Shown here: positions 1-17,733 of the stretch, piece by piece
Layout: the number at the start of each line of letters is the position of its first letter
Position numbering within the stretch: position 1 is the first letter of the stretch
Virus record (IMG/VR): IMGVR_UViG_3300014292_000013
Coordinates: 1-17,733 of that record
Source: a virus
Strand: one strand, 5' to 3'
DNA: 17,733 bases
The notes under the pieces: model-generated
The model's input: the letters and a program-made list of their open reading frames with translations, nothing else
The model's database searches: none
What the model was told of the DNA's origin: nothing
Program-made: the position numbers and the translations under genes

Positions 1-1791
1 AAAGCCACTGCACGAGATGCCATTGCAATTGGCGGTAATGTGAAAGAACCTGGTGATACTCTAGCTACTCAAAAAACAACTGCATCTGGTAGACAATCCA
101 TCGCTCTTGGATATAAAGCAAATTCTAAAGGCGTTTCCGGAATTTCTATTGGTACTAATGCTTATTCTGAAGGAAGAGGTGCTGTTAGTATTGGTAGCTG
201 GTCTATTGCATCTGGAGATGGTGCAACAGCAGTAGGCGGAGGTAATGCTGGAGCAGATAGAGCCGTTGTTGTTGGTTCTGGGAATGCAGATGGTAAAGAA
301 TCTGTTTCTGTGGGGTCATATTCAAGAGTATACGCTGAAGGTGCTGTTGGTATTGGCAGAAATGTTTTTATTGATGATAGTGCAACAAACTCTGTTGTTA
401 TTGGCTCTTCCTCTGAGACAATTAGTAAAAAGAATGTGACAGCTATCGGTTCCAATACATATTCTGAAGTTGAAAATAGTGTAGCACTCGGAACATCGGC
501 AAGAGCAGATGAAGTAGTTTCTACTAGCTCTGCGAATATTGCTGGTAAAACATATAATTTTGCGGGTAAAACAGCTGATGGTACAGTAAGTATTGGTGGT
601 AAAATTATATCTGGTTATGAAACAGATAGATACGGAATACCTATCTTCGATGATAATGGTAATATGATTCCTATAGTTGATAAAACTGCTTATCGCACTA
701 TCACAAATGTAGCTGCTGGTCGTATCTCCGATACTTCCACCGATGCAGTTAATGGTAGTCAATTGAATGCAGCTATTAAAGGTATTGATAAGAATCATCA
801 AGATATTGTAGATACTGCAAAAGGTCTACAAATGCTAGGTGACGTTGTAGCAGACCATGAAGTAGCGATTGCTGCTAATAAACAATCAGCAGCTGATGCT
901 ATGGCAGAAGCTAAAAAGCATACAAGCGTTGTTGCTGGTGACAATGTAGCTGTTACAACTGGTACAAATACAGCTAATGGTAAAAAATATACTGTATCTG
1001 TTAAAAAAGACCTTACAGATATGAATTCTATTAACTTCGGTGCCAATACTGATTCTAAACATTCTATTACAAATAAAGATGGTATGCATGTATTCAATGG
1101 TGAAGTAAATACTAATTATGATTCTAATGGTATTAAAATTGAAAATACTAATACTTTAGAAACTGCTCAATATACTATGAATGGTATGCAAGCTTCTGAT
1201 GATAATGCTACTATTCGTTTCACTACTACAAATATTGATGCTGGCAATCAACAAATTCATGGTGTTAAAGCTGGTACAGCTAATACCGATGCTGTTAATG
1301 TAAGCCAACTTAAAGAAGTAGGAAATAAAGTTAATGATAACTCTGGTCGTATTAACAGAAACGAAAATCGTATCAATGATTTAGATAATAAAATTAATGA
1401 TGTTGGTCGTAATGCTTTAGAACGTGCTAATCATTATACAGATTTGCAAGTCAATAAAGGCGTAGCTAAAGCGTCTGCTCTTGCTGGTTTAAAATTCTTA
1501 GATTATAATCCTAAAGATAAATGGTCCTTCGCAGCGAGCGTAGGCCATTACCGTAATGCTAATGCGGTTGCCGTAGGTGCCGCATACCAACCTAATGAAA
1601 ACACTATGGTTCATGGTGGTATTACAGTAGATGGTAAAATAGCATACAATTTAGGTGTAAGTGTTAAAGTTGGCGGTCAAAAATATATTAATAAATATAA
1701 ATTGGCTGAACAAGTTAAACAATTACAATCTGATAATGCAGAATTACGTCAAGAATTAGCTGAATTGCGTTCTATGATTGAAAAGCGATAA
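1..1791 (+). CDS. Trimeric autotransporter adhesin (YadA-like), 5'-truncated by the window edge
   Basis: Frame 1 is open from nt 1 (KATARDAIAIGGN...), so the gene starts upstream. It has repetitive G-rich head repeats (SIALG, SIGT, VSIGS, AVGG) and neck/stalk motifs (DAVNGSQLNAA, DAVNVSQLKEV). A C-terminal YadA-type membrane anchor is present (ALAGLKFLDYNPKDKWSFAASVGHYRNANAVAVGAAYQPNENTMVHGGITVDG...). An extra heptad-like tail of about 40 aa follows the anchor. Confidence 0.85.
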   Translation, partial: KATARDAIAIGGNVKEPGDTLATQKTTASGRQSIALGYKANSKGVSGISIGTNAYSEGRGAVSIGSWSIASGDGATAVGGGNAGADRAVVVGSGNADGKESVSVGSYSRVYAEGAVGIGRNVFIDDSATNSVVIGSSSETISKKNVTAIGSNTYSEVENSVALGTSARADEVVSTSSANIAGKTYNFAGKTADGTVSIGGKIISGYETDRYGIPIFDDNGNMIPIVDKTAYRTITNVAAGRISDTSTDAVNGSQLNAAIKGIDKNHQDIVDTAKGLQMLGDVVADHEVAIAANKQSAADAMAEAKKHTSVVAGDNVAVTTGTNTANGKKYTVSVKKDLTDMNSINFGANTDSKHSITNKDGMHVFNGEVNTNYDSNGIKIENTNTLETAQYTMNGMQASDDNATIRFTTTNIDAGNQQIHGVKAGTANTDAVNVSQLKEVGNKVNDNSGRINRNENRINDLDNKINDVGRNALERANHYTDLQVNKGVAKASALAGLKFLDYNPKDKWSFAASVGHYRNANAVAVGAAYQPNENTMVHGGITVDGKIAYNLGVSVKVGGQKYINKYKLAEQVKQLQSDNAELRQELAELRSMIEKR

Positions 1792-2849: not shown

Positions 2850-2885
2850 CTATATTTTTAAAGTAGACAAAAAGGAGAAAAGAAA

Positions 2886-3050
2886 ATGAACAAAGTATTT
2901 GAATTGGTAGGCCGTGCAGTTATCGGCGGGATTATTGGTTTTGCAGTTGGGTATGTAACCCAAACTGCAATTAACGGTGGTTTGGCTAATAATGTGAAAG
3001 CAGACGTTAAGGGTTTTAAGAAATTGGTCAAAGACACAATTAATGCGTAA
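2886..3050 (+). CDS. Small glycine-zipper membrane protein (54 aa)
   Basis: An AAAGGAG RBS lies 8 nt upstream of the ATG. The product is MNKVFELVGRAVIGGIIGFAVGYVTQTAINGGLANNVKADVKGFKKLVKDTINA. It is below the ORF-track size cut-off. Confidence 0.5.
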   Translation: MNKVFELVGRAVIGGIIGFAVGYVTQTAINGGLANNVKADVKGFKKLVKDTINA

Positions 3051-3056
3051 GCGAAA

Positions 3057-3074
3057 CCTTGTATAATATTGGTG
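3057..3074 (+). promoter_or_regulatory. Conserved promoter-like motif, copy 3 (CCTTGTATAATATTGGTG)
   Basis: Perfect TATAAT at 3062-3067. It sits immediately upstream of the ORF-free structured region. Confidence 0.6.
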
Positions 3075-3567
3075 AAATGCCTTAGTTAAGTTATTCGTCG
3101 CATTGCGGTTTAATTTAATTAAGGCTTTCATATATGTTGAAGGTCGGCATCGAACCTTCTGGGGCAAGCTGAGACTTGCGAATAATTGCGGTATTTGGAG
3201 GAAAGCTAAGTCATAAAGATATGTGAACTCCACTGAAGGCTATATGTAATAGTGTAGTCAAGTGTCCAATGGATTGAAACTCATTAGAGAATATAATATC
3301 CTAAAAGACCGCAACTTCCATTAGCGACGATACTAATGTTGAAGAAGTAGTGGACTACCCTATCGAAAGATAGGGACTATAACTTATATTGGCGGATTGC
3401 GTTGAGGTCGAAATACCTTTCATAATCATAAGTAAATTAATAGTAGACGTAAGAGCTACCATCCGCCAATATTTCATGGGCTTAGTAGAGAAAAAAAACT
3501 GGTGCAACTCCAGAAAAGCCCTGAAATACTATTATCGTAATTTAGGTGTTCCAACGGTTCCGGAATG
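3075..3567 (+). ncRNA. Large structured non-coding RNA candidate (about 0.5 kb), class unknown
   Basis: There is no credible ORF, and the region is visibly richer in G+C than its neighbours. Helices read by eye: 3074-3089/3115-3129 (15 bp); 3139-3144/3154-3159; 3164-3168/3175-3179; a GAAA-tetraloop hairpin at 3358-3364/3369-3375; a 12-bp helix at 3386-3397/3461-3472; and 3478-3483/3516-3521. A nested long-range complementarity pairs 3095-3108 with 3309-3330. Confidence 0.5.
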
Positions 3568-3585
3568 CCTTGTACGATAATGGTG
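3568..3585 (+). promoter_or_regulatory. Conserved promoter-like motif, copy 4 (CCTTGTACGATAATGGTG)
   Basis: Same length and flanks as the other copies. The hexamer is degenerate (TACGAT, or GATAAT shifted by 3). It lies 147 nt upstream of ssb. Confidence 0.45.
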
Positions 3586-3731
3586 AGTGAAATCATTTAG
3601 TCATTCATACCTGTTTGTATAAGGAAATGGTATTGGCAATGATAAAAAGAAGAGTAACTCAAATTTTTTAATTATAAGATAAAAGTTTTAAGTCCTCTAG
3701 TCAGATAGTAGAGGCAAAATAAGGAGTAATT

Positions 3732-4163
3732 ATGAACAACTTTAGTTTAATCAAAGGGTACGTATCCCGCAAAACAACTACTTTCCATCCAGCACGTGAT
3801 GGTAAAAAAGCTGTATTTAGCACAACTATCGCAGTAGCAACTGGCACAGTTGATGGCGAAGGTAAGAAAGTATATAACTGGGTACCAGTTAAATCCTTCG
3901 GTAAAACAGCTGAATTGATGAATGAAAATCTTGTTGGTGGTGATTACACAGAAATCACTGGTCGTTTGGGTATGAACCCACGTTATACCAATAAGAAAGG
4001 CGAAACAGTTTATGAAACTTGTTTCTTGGTAGCAACACAATTCTCTCGTTTGACTCAACGCGAAACTCCAAAAGCAACTGAAGTAGCTCAAGAAGAAGTT
4101 GAAAACTTTGCAGGAGCACCAGAAGTGTTCGGCGAAGAATTAGAAGGTGCAACAATTTTTTAA
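3732..4163 (+). CDS. ssb: Single-stranded DNA-binding protein
   Basis: The OB-fold pattern is present (NNFSLIKGYV..., AVFSTTIAV, WVPVKSFGKTAELMNENLVGGDYTEITGRLGMNPRYTNKKGETVYETCFLVA). The C-terminal tail is acidic and ends in ...EELEGATIF. The RBS is a strong AAGGAG. Confidence 0.75.
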   Translation: MNNFSLIKGYVSRKTTTFHPARDGKKAVFSTTIAVATGTVDGEGKKVYNWVPVKSFGKTAELMNENLVGGDYTEITGRLGMNPRYTNKKGETVYETCFLVATQFSRLTQRETPKATEVAQEEVENFAGAPEVFGEELEGATIF

Positions 4164-15440: not shown

Positions 15441-15532
15441 GGAAGCTTACTCAAGTGGATTAAGAGACTAGTCTTGAAAACTAGGAGGCGGTTAATAGCC
15501 GTGCCAGAGTTCGAATCTCTGAGCTTCCGCCA
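15441..15532 (+). tRNA. tRNA-Ser (anticodon UGA), class II, CCA encoded
   Basis: Acceptor GGAAGCT/AGCTTCC. Anticodon stem CTAGT/ACTAG with loop CTTGAAA. Long variable arm. T-arm CAGAG-TTCGAAT-CTCTG. Discriminator G followed by CCA. Confidence 0.9.
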
Positions 15533-15533
15533 T

Positions 15534-15619
15534 GGTAAAGTACCCAAGTTGGATAAAGGGAGCAGACTGTAAATCTGTCGCTTATAGCTTCGAAGGTTCG
15601 AATCCTTCCTTTACCACCA
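15534..15619 (+). tRNA. tRNA-Tyr (anticodon GUA), class II, CCA encoded
   Basis: Acceptor GGTAAAG/CTTTACC. Anticodon loop CTGTAAA. Long variable arm. T-arm GAAGG-TTCGAAT-CCTTC. ACCA at the 3' end. Confidence 0.9.
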
Positions 15620-15624
15620 TTTAT

Positions 15625-15700
15625 AGCGGAGTAGAGCAGTTGGTAGCTCATCGGGCTCATAACCCGAAGGTCACAAGTTCAAATCTTGTCTCCGCAACCA
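15625..15700 (+). tRNA. Initiator-type tRNA-fMet (anticodon CAU), CCA encoded
   Basis: It closely resembles the E. coli initiator tRNA as recalled from memory. The anticodon stem TCGGG/CCCGA carries three consecutive G-C pairs next to the loop CTCATAA. Positions 1 and 72 are unpaired (A1 x A72). The 3' end is ...CTCCGCAACCA. Confidence 0.85.
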
Positions 15701-15703
15701 CAT

Positions 15704-15779
15704 GCTGGCGTAGCTCAATAGGTAGAGCGGTTGACTTGTAATCAACAGGTTGTGGGTTCAATTCCTATCGCCAGCTCCA
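15704..15779 (+). tRNA. tRNA-Thr (anticodon UGU), CCA encoded
   Basis: Acceptor GCTGGCG/CGCCAGC. D-arm GCTC-AATAGGTA-GAGC. Anticodon stem GTTGA/TCAAC with loop CTTGTAA. TCCA at the 3' end. Confidence 0.9.
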
Positions 15780-17051: not shown

Positions 17052-17088
17052 TTGACAAAACTATTGAAAACCTTGTATTATATTGGTG
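17052..17088 (+). promoter_or_regulatory. Promoter: TTGACA, 18-nt spacer, conserved motif copy 7 (CCTTGTATTATATTGGTG)
   Basis: Perfect -35 at 17052-17057. The motif spans 17071-17088 with its TATTAT hexamer at 17076-17081. Confidence 0.65.
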
Positions 17089-17733
17089 TGGGCATTTCGT
17101 TTCTCCCCCCTAGAAATGCTCGCATATTCACTCCTATAGGATATAGATAGACAGATTGAACTCCTTTCAAATAAATAAACACATATAAATTGTACGGAAA
17201 TAATAAAAAAAATTTTAACCTCCCTGTTAAAATAAAGACTCGTAGAAATAAATACAAACAACAAGATAATTCACCTTTCTTTAAAATAAGATTCTCACAA
17301 TGATAACTTATAACCGTGGGGCACACGGGGATAGCCTATCGCCTGATTGTAAGACTTTTTGAAATAATAAAAAAGCAAATCTTTGGGTAGGAACCTCATG
17401 ATTTTGAATCATAAGAGGGTGCCAGAATGCGTCTGTCTGTCTATATCCAACACATGTTCTTGTAGTTCAATTAGAATACCTTTAACTTCAAAGGAGATTT
17501 ACGTTAAAGTCGTAACGAGAGCATTAATTATTATATTAGGGTTTTACTTTTCCCCTGCATCGATATTACATGTTTATACTTTTTGAGATGTTTTAATAAG
17601 CATAGGTATAATATCCAGTTACGTTTTTAATGTACGAGTGTGAGATGCGAATAATCGAAGAGCATAAAATATCTTAGAGGCCCAGCTGGTGGAAGGCCAG
17701 CATACTTGCTCGTGTGGCGAAATTGGAAAACGC
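17089..17733 (+). ncRNA. Large structured non-coding RNA candidate (at least 0.65 kb, 3' end beyond the window)
   Basis: No credible ORF is present. A 5' hairpin pairs 17090-17098 with 17113-17121 and has the C-rich loop TCTCCCCCC. Hairpin 17156-17160/17166-17170 has the loop CTCCT. Hairpin 17213-17219/17226-17232 has the loop CTCCCT. An 18-bp long-range helix joins 17139-17156 to 17431-17448 (16 Watson-Crick and 2 G-U pairs). Further hairpins are 17314-17318/17324-17328 and 17685-17689/17697-17701. Confidence 0.5.

What the first reader, a model, noticed from the sequence alone, without database searches (positions are those of the whole stretch)
3057..3731. Second large structured RNA candidate (about 0.5 kb) launched from a consensus motif, between a small membrane-protein gene and ssb
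Between 3050 and 3732 the only ORFs are a TTG-started 63-aa ORF without an RBS and an antisense ORF. Neither looks real.

The region begins right after motif copy 3 and is visibly richer in G+C than the flanking genes. It contains many helices:
- A 15-bp helix, 3074-3089/3115-3129.
- GAAGGT/ACCTTC at 3139-3144/3154-3159.
- GCAAG/CTTGC at 3164-3168/3175-3179.
- A 7-bp stem capped by a GAAA (GNRA) tetraloop, 3358-3375.
- A perfect 12-bp helix, ATATTGGCGGAT/ATCCGCCAATAT (3386-3397/3461-3472), enclosing smaller stems.
- GGGCTT/AAGCCC at 3478-3483/3516-3521.

The loop of the first helix (TCGTCGC-A-TTGCGG, 3095-3108) is complementary in nested antiparallel order to CCGCAA...GCGACGA (3309-3314 and 3324-3330). 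That is 13 bp and would form a long-range pseudoknot. GNRA tetraloops combined with pseudoknots are typical of tertiary-folded RNAs rather than simple leaders.

Motif copy 4 sits at the 3' edge, and a further 147-nt leader precedes ssb.
Basis: partly seen in the sequence, partly recalled or inferred. Interest (0 to 1): 0.7.

Follow-up and report, generated by a model that had tools for sequence, protein, structure and literature searches.

The report
Group I ribozyme upstream of ssb
The 0.5-kb "mystery RNA" is a group I intron-type ribozyme that the standard RNA library misses, and it sits in non-coding DNA ahead of a jumbo phage's ssb gene instead of splitting a gene.

Summary
Twelve to 25 related phage sequences keep the helices through many compensatory changes.

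It is not a new RNA class. Window 3164-3375 folds into a complete group I ribozyme core: P2, P3, P4-P6, P7, P7.1/P7.2, P8, J8/7 and P9 with a GAAA loop. This is the IA2-like type.

The same core occurs in elements that split phage ribonucleotide reductase, terminase-like and tape-measure-like genes. Removing those elements at U|...G| restores the reading frames. Rfam's RF00028 scores the window at only 18.8 bits (threshold 50) and misses those gene-splitting relatives entirely.

Its CCGCAA arm is the 3' strand of P3. The real pseudoknot is P3/P7.

The context is unusual. The ribozyme interrupts no ORF and follows a phage promoter motif. The hairpin in the P1 position never has the U.G splice-site pair. 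Closely similar copies at a second intergenic site, three of them with no P1/P2 at all, occur in other ~230-kb phage contigs.

Whether it splices, only cleaves, or has been put to another use is unresolved.

Verdict: known kind, unusual variant, moderate interest.

The parts
3057..3074 (+). Promoter-like motif copy 3 (CCTTGTATAATATTGGTG). The -10-like TATAAT is at 3062-3067. The inferred transcript start is about 3074.
   Evidence: One of 7 + strand copies in the window. The same motif precedes genes in the distant relative L007. Promoter function is inferred, not shown.
3074..3129 (+). H1, a 5' terminal hairpin: 3074-3077/3126-3129 and 3079-3090/3114-3125, with an inner hairpin 3097-3101/3105-3109. 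Its distal part is dispensable.
   Evidence: 99.5% of cells paired. GCC/GGC becomes GUU/GAC in L011 and GUCC/GGAC in L016. The inner CGC/GCG becomes CGU/ACG. The distal part is deleted in L016.
3139..3159 (+). Hairpin in the position of P1 (GAAGGU/ACCUUC). Its loop-proximal pair is U-A or C-G, never U.G.
   Evidence: 100% paired, with 2 pairs changed on both sides, e.g. GAAAGC/GCUUUC (columns 98-103/113-118).
3164..3179 (+). P2 hairpin (GCAAG/CUUGC).
   Evidence: C-G becomes U-A in L016, with a U.G intermediate in L014. Present in the second-site copies L144/L177/L183 and absent in L139/L141/L148.
3186..3314 (+). P3: UUGCGGU 3186-3192 pairs with ACCGCAA 3308-3314. It encloses P4-P6, the 5' strand of P7 and P7.1/P7.2.
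   Evidence: 97.8% paired in 13 sequences. UGGCGG/CCGCCA in L148; GUGGUA/UACCGC in L016 and GCGGU/ACCGC in L191; UCGGGU/AUCCGA in true introns.
3196..3232 (+). P4 (3196-3201/3227-3232) and the P5 region, with the conserved GAAAGCUAAGUC...AAGAUAUG.
   Evidence: Four pairs change on both sides: GGAG/CUCC, GAAG/CUUC, GAACG/CGUUC, UUAGCAA/UUGCUAA. The same P5 sequence aligns to a canonical RF00028 intron.
3238..3259 (+). P6 hairpin (GGCUAUAU/GUGUAGUC).
   Evidence: 99% paired. GACUAUU/AAUAGUC in L011.
3264..3355 (+). P7, the pseudoknot with P3: GUCCA 3264-3268 pairs with UGGAC 3351-3355.
   Evidence: 100% paired with 2 pairs changed on both sides, although P7 was not in the model. Variants are GCCCA/UGGGC, GCCUA/UAGGC, GUUCA/UGAAU and AACUAC/GUAGUU. 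True introns show GCAUA/UAUGC, GCGUA/UACGC, GAGUA/UACUC and GGGUA/UAUCC.
3270..3302 (+). P7.1 (GGAU 3271-3274 / AUCC 3298-3301) and P7.2 (CUC 3280-3282 / GAG 3287-3289). This is the invariant block GAUUGAAACU....AGAAUAUAAU.
   Evidence: A 26-nt pattern with 20 specified bases found 54 loci in IMG/VR. G-C becomes A-U in P7.1, and CUC/GAG becomes CUU/AAG.
3315..3344 (+). P8: CUUC/GAAG plus CAUUAG/CUAAUG. Its length varies.
   Evidence: 88.6% paired with 4 pairs changed on both sides. CUCC/GGAG in L014; shortened to CUUCCAUAUGGAAG in L015.
3345..3350 (+). J8/7-like strand AAGUAG.
   Evidence: Aligned by RF00028 to its AAGAUAUAGUC element and by model R1 to GAAAUAGUC of a canonical intron.
3358..3375 (+). 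P9, a 7-bp stem with a GAAA loop.
   Evidence: 98.9% paired with 2 pairs changed on both sides. In L016/L191 it is replaced by GUGCUUA-GAAA-UAAGCAC.
3376..3472 (+). Variable peripheral domain in the P9.1 position, closed by the 12-bp helix 3386-3397/3461-3472.
   Evidence: G-C becomes A-U in L011/L015. Absent in L012/L013/L193, replaced in L016/L191, shortened in L011/L015.
3478..3521 (+). Invariant hairpin GGGCUU/AAGCCC, with an A-rich internal strand and an inner CUGG-UGCAACU-CCAG stem-loop.
   Evidence: Identical in all 12 relatives, so there is no covariation information. It is specific to the ssb-linked copies.
3531..3585 (+). Long hairpin 3531-3539/3573-3581 plus 3545-3552/3562-3569. Its 3' arm is promoter-motif copy 4 (3568-3585).
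   Evidence: 100% paired. The only changes are A-U to G-U or G.U to A-U, as expected for a + strand RNA.
3586..3731 (+). ssb leader: an A/U-rich stretch, hairpin 3692-3712, and RBS AAGGAG at 3721-3726.
   Evidence: Window 3529-3731 (the motif-4 hairpin plus this leader) is 90-94% identical in relatives whose ssb DNA is 71-87% identical.
3732..4163 (+). ssb gene, the downstream cistron.
   Evidence: Pfam SSB (PF00436), E = 3e-7.

Best explanation
Window about 3074-3521 encodes a group I intron-type ribozyme of the IA2-like kind, with P7.1/P7.2.

**Shown**
- Its core (P2-P9, 3164-3375) is homologous to introns that split phage genes.
- The fold is kept by compensatory changes.
- It lies in non-coding DNA between a 54-aa gene and ssb.

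**Inferred**
- It is transcribed from the promoter-like motif at 3057, as the 5' part of a long read-through transcript that continues into the ssb leader.
- I think it most likely still acts in cis on that transcript. That would be a guanosine-dependent cleavage or excision that removes the ribozyme from the ssb message. This is how an intron or intron descendant stays harmless in an untranslated leader.
- ssb can also be expressed from its own promoter copy at 3568.

Full two-step splicing is doubtful because no canonical U.G 5' splice-site helix is conserved.

My confidence in the identity (group I ribozyme) is about 0.9. My confidence in the cis-processing mechanism is about 0.45.
For: - **Rfam:** RF00028 gives a sub-threshold hit at 3234-3375 that aligns J8/7, P7' and P9 correctly.
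- **Core structure:** written as P3-P9 plus the P3/P7 pseudoknot, it is 90.1% paired in 13 phage sequences. Slid controls give 35-44%. Fourteen pairs change on both sides, and 0 of 500 shuffles reach that.
- **Model R1:** it was built only from the jumbo-phage copies. It matches gene-splitting elements full length at E = 1e-16 to 1e-5. These include copies that were not retrieved by the seed pattern, such as L140 9850-10032 and L145 2493-2682.
- **Link to a canonical intron:** R1 also matches an intron that RF00028 calls at 65 bits, L165 2501-2748, helix for helix.
- **Relatives are real introns:** cutting at U|...G| restores open frames, e.g. RNR TTNPCG|EQPLE, and the terminase-like and tape-measure-like genes.
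- **Retention:** every relative with the HTH / 54-aa / ssb cassette keeps the element, across SSB 71-100% identity. Distant phages of the SSB ~50% type lack it.
- **Constraint:** the core is 96% identical to L008, where ssb DNA is 71% identical.
- **Strand:** G.U-containing helices and the lower folding energy favour the + strand.
Against: - RF00028 scores 18.8 bits against a threshold of 50.
- The element interrupts no reading frame.
- The hairpin in the P1 position closes with U-A or C-G, never U.G.
- The alternative GGU/GCC P1 is contradicted by covariation of GCC with 3123-3125.
- No terminal G could be fixed. The candidates G3391 and G3478 lack a consistent P9.0 partner.
- J3/4 (AUU) and J6/7 (AAGU) differ from those of the true introns.
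- Second-site copies L139, L141 and L148 have P3 starting 14-15 nt after a stop codon, so they have no P1/P2 at all.
- There is no transcript or activity data.
Confidence: 0.55

Rival explanations
1. It is a domesticated, non-splicing group I ribozyme or RNA scaffold. On this view it is a promoter-driven RNA gene that has lost its substrate helix and now does something else. Options include maturing or capping the 5' end of the ssb mRNA (in the manner of GIR1), acting on another RNA in trans, or binding a protein.
For: - No U.G pair in the P1 position.
- Three of the second-site copies (L139, L141, L148) lack P1/P2 entirely, yet keep about 90% core identity and end in their own terminator.
- It has its own promoter-like motif.
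- An invariant 3' hairpin is specific to the ssb-linked copies.
- It is retained in all cassette-bearing relatives.
Against: - No function can be read from the sequence.
- A selfish element in a leader would also be kept foldable.
- Gene conversion from functional introns elsewhere could mimic selection at this locus.
Confidence: 0.3
2. It is an inactive intron relic, or an IStron remnant that lost its transposase part, drifting in an intergenic spacer.
For: - There are no assignable splice sites.
- Large deletions and replacements occur in the 3' third.
- IStrons with IA2 introns occur in Fusobacteria, and 42% of their insertions are not intragenic (PMC4227781).
- tnpB genes lie nearby in relatives L008 and L177.
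Against: - Catalytic-core helices, including P7, are kept by compensatory changes even in L016/L191, where the sequence is largely replaced.
- The region is more conserved than the flanking genes.
- The group A IStron boundaries, TTGAT/ATTAT/TTTAT at the 5' side and TCAG at the 3' end, were not found at the edges (PMC4227781).
- There is no similarity to tnpB flanks.
Confidence: 0.1
3. This is the first reader's view: a new class of large structured RNA organised by a 13-bp long-range pseudoknot, 3095-3108 with 3309-3330.
For: The complementarity exists in the window and in near-identical relatives, with 92.9% of cells paired. There was no Rfam hit at the curated thresholds.
Against: - No compensatory change, and either arm can be deleted.
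- Uncompensated breaks occur in L002, L014, L011 and L193.
- The CCGCAA arm is P3'.
- The whole core maps onto group I.
Confidence: 0.03
4. It is a DNA-level element (a replication origin or regulatory array next to ssb), or an unrecognised protein-coding gene.
For: It lies next to ssb and holds many inverted repeats, which fold equally well as statistics on both strands (z = -5.5 and -5.3).
Against: - Helices are maintained through G.U intermediates that only pair on the + strand RNA.
- No direct-repeat iterons were found.
- No frame is open under any stop-codon reassignment.
Confidence: 0.02

Closest known systems
Group I introns of subgroup IA2 in phage genes (T4 td/nrdB, Staphylococcus phage Twort orf142; Rfam RF00028)
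   Same: - The P3-P9 core with the P3/P7 pseudoknot.
- P7.1/P7.2 between P7 and P3'.
- An AAG-rich J8/7.
- A GNRA-capped P9.
- Direct homologues split RNR, terminase-like and tape-measure-like genes at U|...G|.
   Different: - It is not inside a gene.
- No U.G 5' splice-site pair and no assignable terminal G.
- It fails RF00028's threshold (18.8 against 50 bits).
- It is preceded by its own promoter-like motif.
Intron component of IStrons (CdISt1; FnISt1/FnISt2 of Fusobacterium, LbISt1 of Leptotrichia; PMC4227781)
   Same: - An IA2-type ribozyme.
- A low-G+C lineage; a Gram-negative host is only suggested here by the YadA-like gene.
- Often found outside genes.
- IS605-type tnpB genes are present in related phage contigs.
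   Different: - No IS part is fused to the 3' end in the window.
- No TTGAT...TCAG boundaries.
- The tnpB elements in relatives are separate insertions that lie beyond a terminator.
c-di-GMP-II riboswitch-controlled group I ribozyme in a Clostridioides difficile 5' UTR (as summarised in PMC3984707)
   Same: A group I ribozyme in the untranslated leader of a protein-coding gene. There, processing of the leader is the biological output.
   Different: No aptamer was detected upstream. The ssb ribosome-binding site is already intact and does not need splicing to be assembled.
GIR1 lariat-capping ribozyme (from my own knowledge)
   Same: It is a group I-derived core without a normal P1 that sits directly upstream of an ORF and matures that mRNA's 5' end. 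That makes it a possible functional analogy.
   Different: GIR1 lives inside a twin-ribozyme intron in eukaryotic rDNA and has a rearranged core (DP2/DP2.1/DP10). None of that was tested or seen here.

Membership tests
Group I intron (RF00028) | Score at or above Rfam's gathering threshold (50 bits) | tested here: not met
   18.8 bits, E = 0.038, for window 3234-3375, and nothing in the whole-window scan. The model also misses proven gene-splitting relatives, so this test is insensitive for this subfamily.
Group I intron (RF00028) | Core helices P3, P4, P5, P6, P7, P8 and P9 in canonical order, with the P3/P7 pseudoknot, supported by covariation | tested here: met
   90.1% of cells paired, and 14 pairs with changes on both sides (0 of 500 shuffles reach this). 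P7 is 100% paired. Model R1 aligns helix for helix to an intron that RF00028 calls at 65 bits.
Group I intron (RF00028) | Homology to elements that interrupt genes and whose removal restores the reading frame | tested here: met
   R1 hits full length at E = 1e-16 to 1e-5. Exon joining gives zero stops for L164 (RNR) and L140, and continuous reading across the junction for L147.
Group I intron (RF00028) | The element itself interrupts a gene (protein, tRNA or rRNA) | tested here: not met
   It lies between the stop of the 54-aa ORF (3050) and the ssb start (3732). No exon continuity exists in any frame.
Group I intron (RF00028) | P1 substrate helix with a conserved U.G wobble at the 5' splice site | tested here: not met
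   The hairpin at the P1 position closes with U-A or C-G. GGU/GCC is not conserved in L011/L016. Second-site copies L139/L141/L148 have no room for P1.
Group I intron (RF00028) | Terminal G (omega-G) with P9.0/P10 pairings that define the 3' splice site | tested here: inconclusive
   Candidates are G3391 and G3478. True introns show P9.0 covariation (AC/GU, AG/CU, AA/UU, GA/UC), but no consistent partner exists in the window copies.
Group I intron (RF00028) | Guanosine-dependent self-splicing activity | not testable with these tools
   Needs in vitro transcription with GTP/Mg2+, or RNA from infected cells.
Subgroup IA2 | P7.1/P7.2 extension between the 5' strand of P7 and P3' | tested here: met
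   3270-3302 forms P7.1 and P7.2 with covariation. Assigning this to IA2 rather than IA1 rests on PMC4227781 and PMC3984707 and on my own knowledge; it was not tested against a subgroup library.
IStron | IS200/IS605 or IS607 part (tnpA/tnpB) embedded in the 3' region of the intron | tested here: not met
   No ORF longer than 63 aa lies in 3051-3731. There is no similarity to tnpB flanks.
IStron | Group A boundaries: insertion after TTGAT/ATTAT/TTTAT, and a 3' end of TCAG | tested here: not met
   Read directly from the sequence. No such pentanucleotide lies at the 5' edge. The only TCAG (3701-3704) is inside the invariant ssb leader hairpin.
Other large ornate RNAs (ROOL, GOLLD, OLE, HEARO, raiA) | Match to the Rfam model of the family | tested here: not met
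   No hit, even at E <= 10, in 2850-3900.

The most novel reading that the evidence does not exclude
These ~230-kb phages carry stand-alone group I ribozyme genes that are no longer introns. On this reading, cores without a working 5' splice-site helix (or with no P1/P2 at all) are kept under selection at two kinds of intergenic site, one of them driven by its own promoter ahead of ssb. They would do a non-splicing job, such as maturing or protecting the downstream mRNA's 5' end, or cutting or ligating another RNA in trans.
Probability: 0.3. Interest if true: 0.75.

Novelty: new variant of a known kind. Interest (0 to 1): 0.45.

Why it matters
- **Annotation gap.** A widespread family of phage group I introns goes unseen by the standard Rfam model. 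A blastn search with one of them hit 101 phage records, mainly from Staphylococcus, Bacillus, Clostridium and Clostridioides phages. Split genes in those phages are therefore mis-annotated as fragments plus "hypothetical proteins".
- **Possible co-option.** The ssb-linked copy and the second-site copies are group I cores outside any gene. They lack a recognisable 5' splice site, yet they are kept by compensatory evolution. If they are active, they would be natural examples of a group I ribozyme used for something other than removing itself from a gene. That is directly testable with a simple in vitro transcription assay.
- **If they are only leader introns,** the finding is an ordinary but useful correction.

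Tried and rejected
- **Hidden coding.** I translated six frames with each stop marked. No reassignment opens a frame.
- **Known RNA families.** Rfam at gathering thresholds gave only 4 tRNAs. In E-value mode the only useful result was the weak group I hit.
- **Direct DNA similarity.** blastn of 3040-3740 found nothing in the phage or plasmid collections. tblastn of SSB against phages found nothing.
Eight of those matches later proved to be weak-to-moderate R1 (group I-type) hits, so they were not a clean negative control.
- **My first structural readings** were wrong. I took UUGCGG/CCGCAA for P4, and GAGAU/AUCUC for P7. I dropped both once P7 (GCAUA/UAUGC and its covarying forms) and the match to the canonical R element CAACG(A)CUA were seen.
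- **Sequence-only homology test.** An intron-only HMM hits window 3198-3348 at E = 1.3e-10, but this is circular for the 26-mer used to find the introns. With the 26-mer removed, the upstream half still gives the top hit at 3199-3264 (E = 0.002). The downstream half gives nothing.
Rejected.
- **IStron remnant.** No boundary motifs and no similarity to tnpB flanks.
- **Splice sites.** I tried H1, the 3139-3159 hairpin and GGU/GCC as P1, and G3391, G3478 and G3537 as the terminal G. None is consistent across the relatives.
- **Intron-less alleles.** None was found among relatives with SSB >= 71% identity.
- **A second copy in the window.** None.
Full report
**1. What is in the window**

Positions 3051-3731 lie between a 54-aa ORF (2886-3050) and ssb (3732-4163; Pfam SSB).
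- No frame is open, even if any one stop codon is reassigned.
- The only ORFs are the 63-aa TTG ORF at 3389-3580 and antisense ORFs.
- G+C is 0.37-0.385. This is above the upstream genes but equal to ssb.
- The + strand of 3068-3600 folds at -159 kcal/mol (z = -5.5). The - strand gives -134.5 kcal/mol (z = -5.3).
- The motif CCTTGTATAATAATGGTG occurs seven times, always on the + strand, at 2041, 2179, 3057, 3568, 6280, 10981 and 17071. It is also used in a distant relative, L007. I read it as a phage promoter by inference.

**2. Relatives**

The ssb protein led to an abundant ~225-235-kb phage; one SSB variant alone is found on 298 contigs. I fetched loci whose SSB is 71-100% identical.
- All have the same order: HTH gene, 54-aa gene, a 570-690-nt non-coding gap, then ssb.
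- All contain the element.
- Phages with a ~50% identical SSB (L007, L197) have the promoter motif and a leader but not the element.
- The gap is as conserved as the flanking genes, or more so. The core is 96% identical to L008, where ssb DNA is 71% identical.

**3. Covariation**

In 12 ssb-linked sequences the peripheral helices are 99.6% paired, against 37-48% for slid partners. Seven pairs change on both sides. These are the helices at 3074-3129, 3139-3159, 3164-3179, 3386-3472, 3478-3521 and 3531-3581.

- It shows no compensatory change.
- L016 lacks one arm, and L012/L013/L015 lack the other.
- L002, L014, L011 and L193 break it without compensation.

**4. Identity**

Three invariant blocks stood out. 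One of them, GATTGAANCTNNNNANAGAATATAAT (20 specified bases), found 54 IMG/VR loci. They fall into three groups.
- The ssb-linked copies.
- Copies with about 90% core identity at a second intergenic site in other ~230-kb contigs. These sit just after a 116-aa gene and end in a strong terminator.
- Many elements that interrupt genes in other phages and prophages.

Cutting those last elements at U|...G| restores the reading frames. Examples are RNR ...TTNPCG|EQPLE..., a terminase-like ...LDTQGV|GISIF..., and a tape-measure-like gene. A blastn search with one of them hits 101 phage records, mainly from Staphylococcus, Bacillus, Clostridium and Clostridioides phages, often beside HNH endonuclease genes.

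Aligning these with the window gives a canonical group I layout. Window coordinates are:

| Element | Coordinates |
|---|---|
| P2 | 3164-3179 |
| P3 | 3186-3192 / 3308-3314 |
| P4 | 3196-3201 / 3227-3232 |
| P5 region | 3202-3226 |
| P6 | 3238-3259 |
| P7 | 3264-3268 / 3351-3355 |
| P7.1 / P7.2 | 3270-3302 |
| P8 | 3315-3344 |
| J8/7 (AAGUAG) | 3345-3350 |
| P9, GAAA loop | 3358-3375 |
| Variable domain, P9.1 position | 3376-3472 |
| Invariant hairpin | 3478-3521 |

P7 covaries richly.
- Jumbo-phage copies: GUCCA/UGGAC, GCCCA/UGGGC, GCCUA/UAGGC, GUUCA/UGAAU and AACUAC/GUAGUU.
- True introns: GCAUA/UAUGC, GCGUA/UACGC, GAGUA/UACUC and GGGUA/UAUCC.

On 13 jumbo-phage sequences the whole core is 90.1% paired. 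Fourteen pairs change on both sides, and 0 of 500 shuffles reach that.

I built covariance model R1 from those 13 sequences only.
- It hits the gene-splitting elements full length at E = 1e-16 to 1e-5.
- Some of these hits were not retrieved by the seed pattern, so this part of the evidence is not circular.
- It also aligns helix for helix to an intron that RF00028 calls at 65 bits, L165 2501-2748.

RF00028 itself gives only 18.8 bits in the window. Its alignment of J8/7, P7' and P9 is nevertheless correct. It finds nothing at all in the RNR intron, even in a 421-nt search, or in L145.

**5. Is it an intron here?**

The evidence points against canonical self-splicing.
- It splits no gene.
- The hairpin in the P1 position (3139-3159) closes with U-A or C-G, never U.G.
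- A 3-bp GGU(3071-3073)/GCC(3079-3081) pairing looks like the P1 of the true introns. However, GGU belongs to the promoter motif, and GCC covaries with 3123-3125 instead.
- I could not fix a terminal G. G3391 lies in a segment that several relatives lack. G3478 is conserved but has no consistent P9.0 partner.
- In the second-site copies L139, L141 and L148, P3 begins 14-15 nt after the stop codon of the upstream gene. There is no room for P1/P2.
- J3/4 and J6/7 also differ from those of the true introns.

On the other side, the catalytic-core helices are clearly under selection. This holds even in L016/L191, where the P7-P9 sequence is replaced but the pairing is kept.

**6. How it most likely works**

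- **Shown:** a group I fold, its conservation, and its position.
- **Inferred:** transcription from 3057 through the ribozyme into the ssb leader.
- **Supporting observation:** the second promoter copy (3568) forms the 3' arm of a long hairpin that is conserved at the RNA level. That hairpin can only exist in such read-through RNA.

I favour cis action on this leader, meaning self-cleavage or excision (about 0.45). The next option is a domesticated non-splicing role (about 0.3), followed by an inactive relic (about 0.1).

There are precedents for group I ribozymes outside coding sequence. One is the C. difficile riboswitch-ribozyme in a 5' UTR (PMC3984707). Another is IStrons, 42% of whose insertions are not intragenic, and which occur in Fusobacteria with IA2 introns (PMC4227781). 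The window lacks an IS part and lacks IStron boundaries.

**7. Verdict**

The interpretation as a new RNA class is wrong. The element is a group I ribozyme in an atypical, possibly non-intronic setting.

Noticed in passing
window 17071-17733, especially 17456-17523 (+): A ~650-nt ORF-poor stretch follows another promoter-motif copy. Its fold z-score is -2.3. It contains a tRNA-like match (RF00005, 34.1 bits against a threshold of 29) that ARAGORN and the whole-window Rfam scan did not report. It is not a group I copy, since R1 finds nothing there.
   Followed up: partly
window 3529-3731: The ssb promoter copy and leader are 90-94% identical in relatives whose ssb DNA is only 71-87% identical. 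The promoter copy is the 3' arm of a 17-bp two-part hairpin that is kept through A-U/G-U changes. This could be an autoregulatory or processing target, by analogy with the T4 gene 32 leader (my own knowledge).
   Followed up: partly
L164 2306-2523 (-), L145 2493-2682 and 2856-3073 (-), L140, L147, L146 and others: RF00028 is blind to a widespread family of gene-splitting group I introns. It gives no hit at E < 10 on the RNR intron. Exon joining restores the ORFs. A blastn search finds the family in 101 phage records.
   Followed up: yes
L008 7793-7988 and 8160-9416; L177 2491-3741 (-): Related jumbo-phage contigs carry IS605-type tnpB genes (OrfB_IS605 plus the Cas12f-like TNB domain). In L008 the gene is preceded by a weak group I-like match that contains the canonical AAGAUAUAGUC, so this may be an IStron. 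In L177 the gene sits about 290 nt beyond the terminator of the second-site ribozyme copy.
   Followed up: partly
L180 2300-4320: Five intron-like elements lie in tandem between two ORFs of a prophage-derived contig. Two are of the new type (R1) and three are called by RF00028, one of them at 47.2 bits, just under the threshold.
   Followed up: no
L017 1079-4905, 8001-8393 and 16287 onward: One 228-kb relative has a 3.8-kb stretch with no called gene. It also has two different ssb genes (55% and about 71% types). Only the second is preceded by the ribozyme.
   Followed up: no
window 40-1791 (+): A YadA-like trimeric autotransporter adhesin ORF, with head, stalk and anchor domains, lies inside the phage contig and is conserved in all relatives. 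It suggests a Gram-negative, low-G+C host. The host was not determined.
   Followed up: no
window 15441-15779 (+): A cluster of four tRNA genes: Ser-TGA, Tyr-GTA, Met-CAT and Thr-TGT. None is a suppressor.
   Followed up: yes
window 3074-3090 against 3586-3602: The first ~17 nt after promoter copies 3 and 4 resemble each other (GAAATGCCTTAGTTAAG against GAAATCATTTAGTCATT, 12 of 17 identical). This suggests that the promoter plus the start of the leader was duplicated when the ribozyme cassette was acquired.
   Followed up: no
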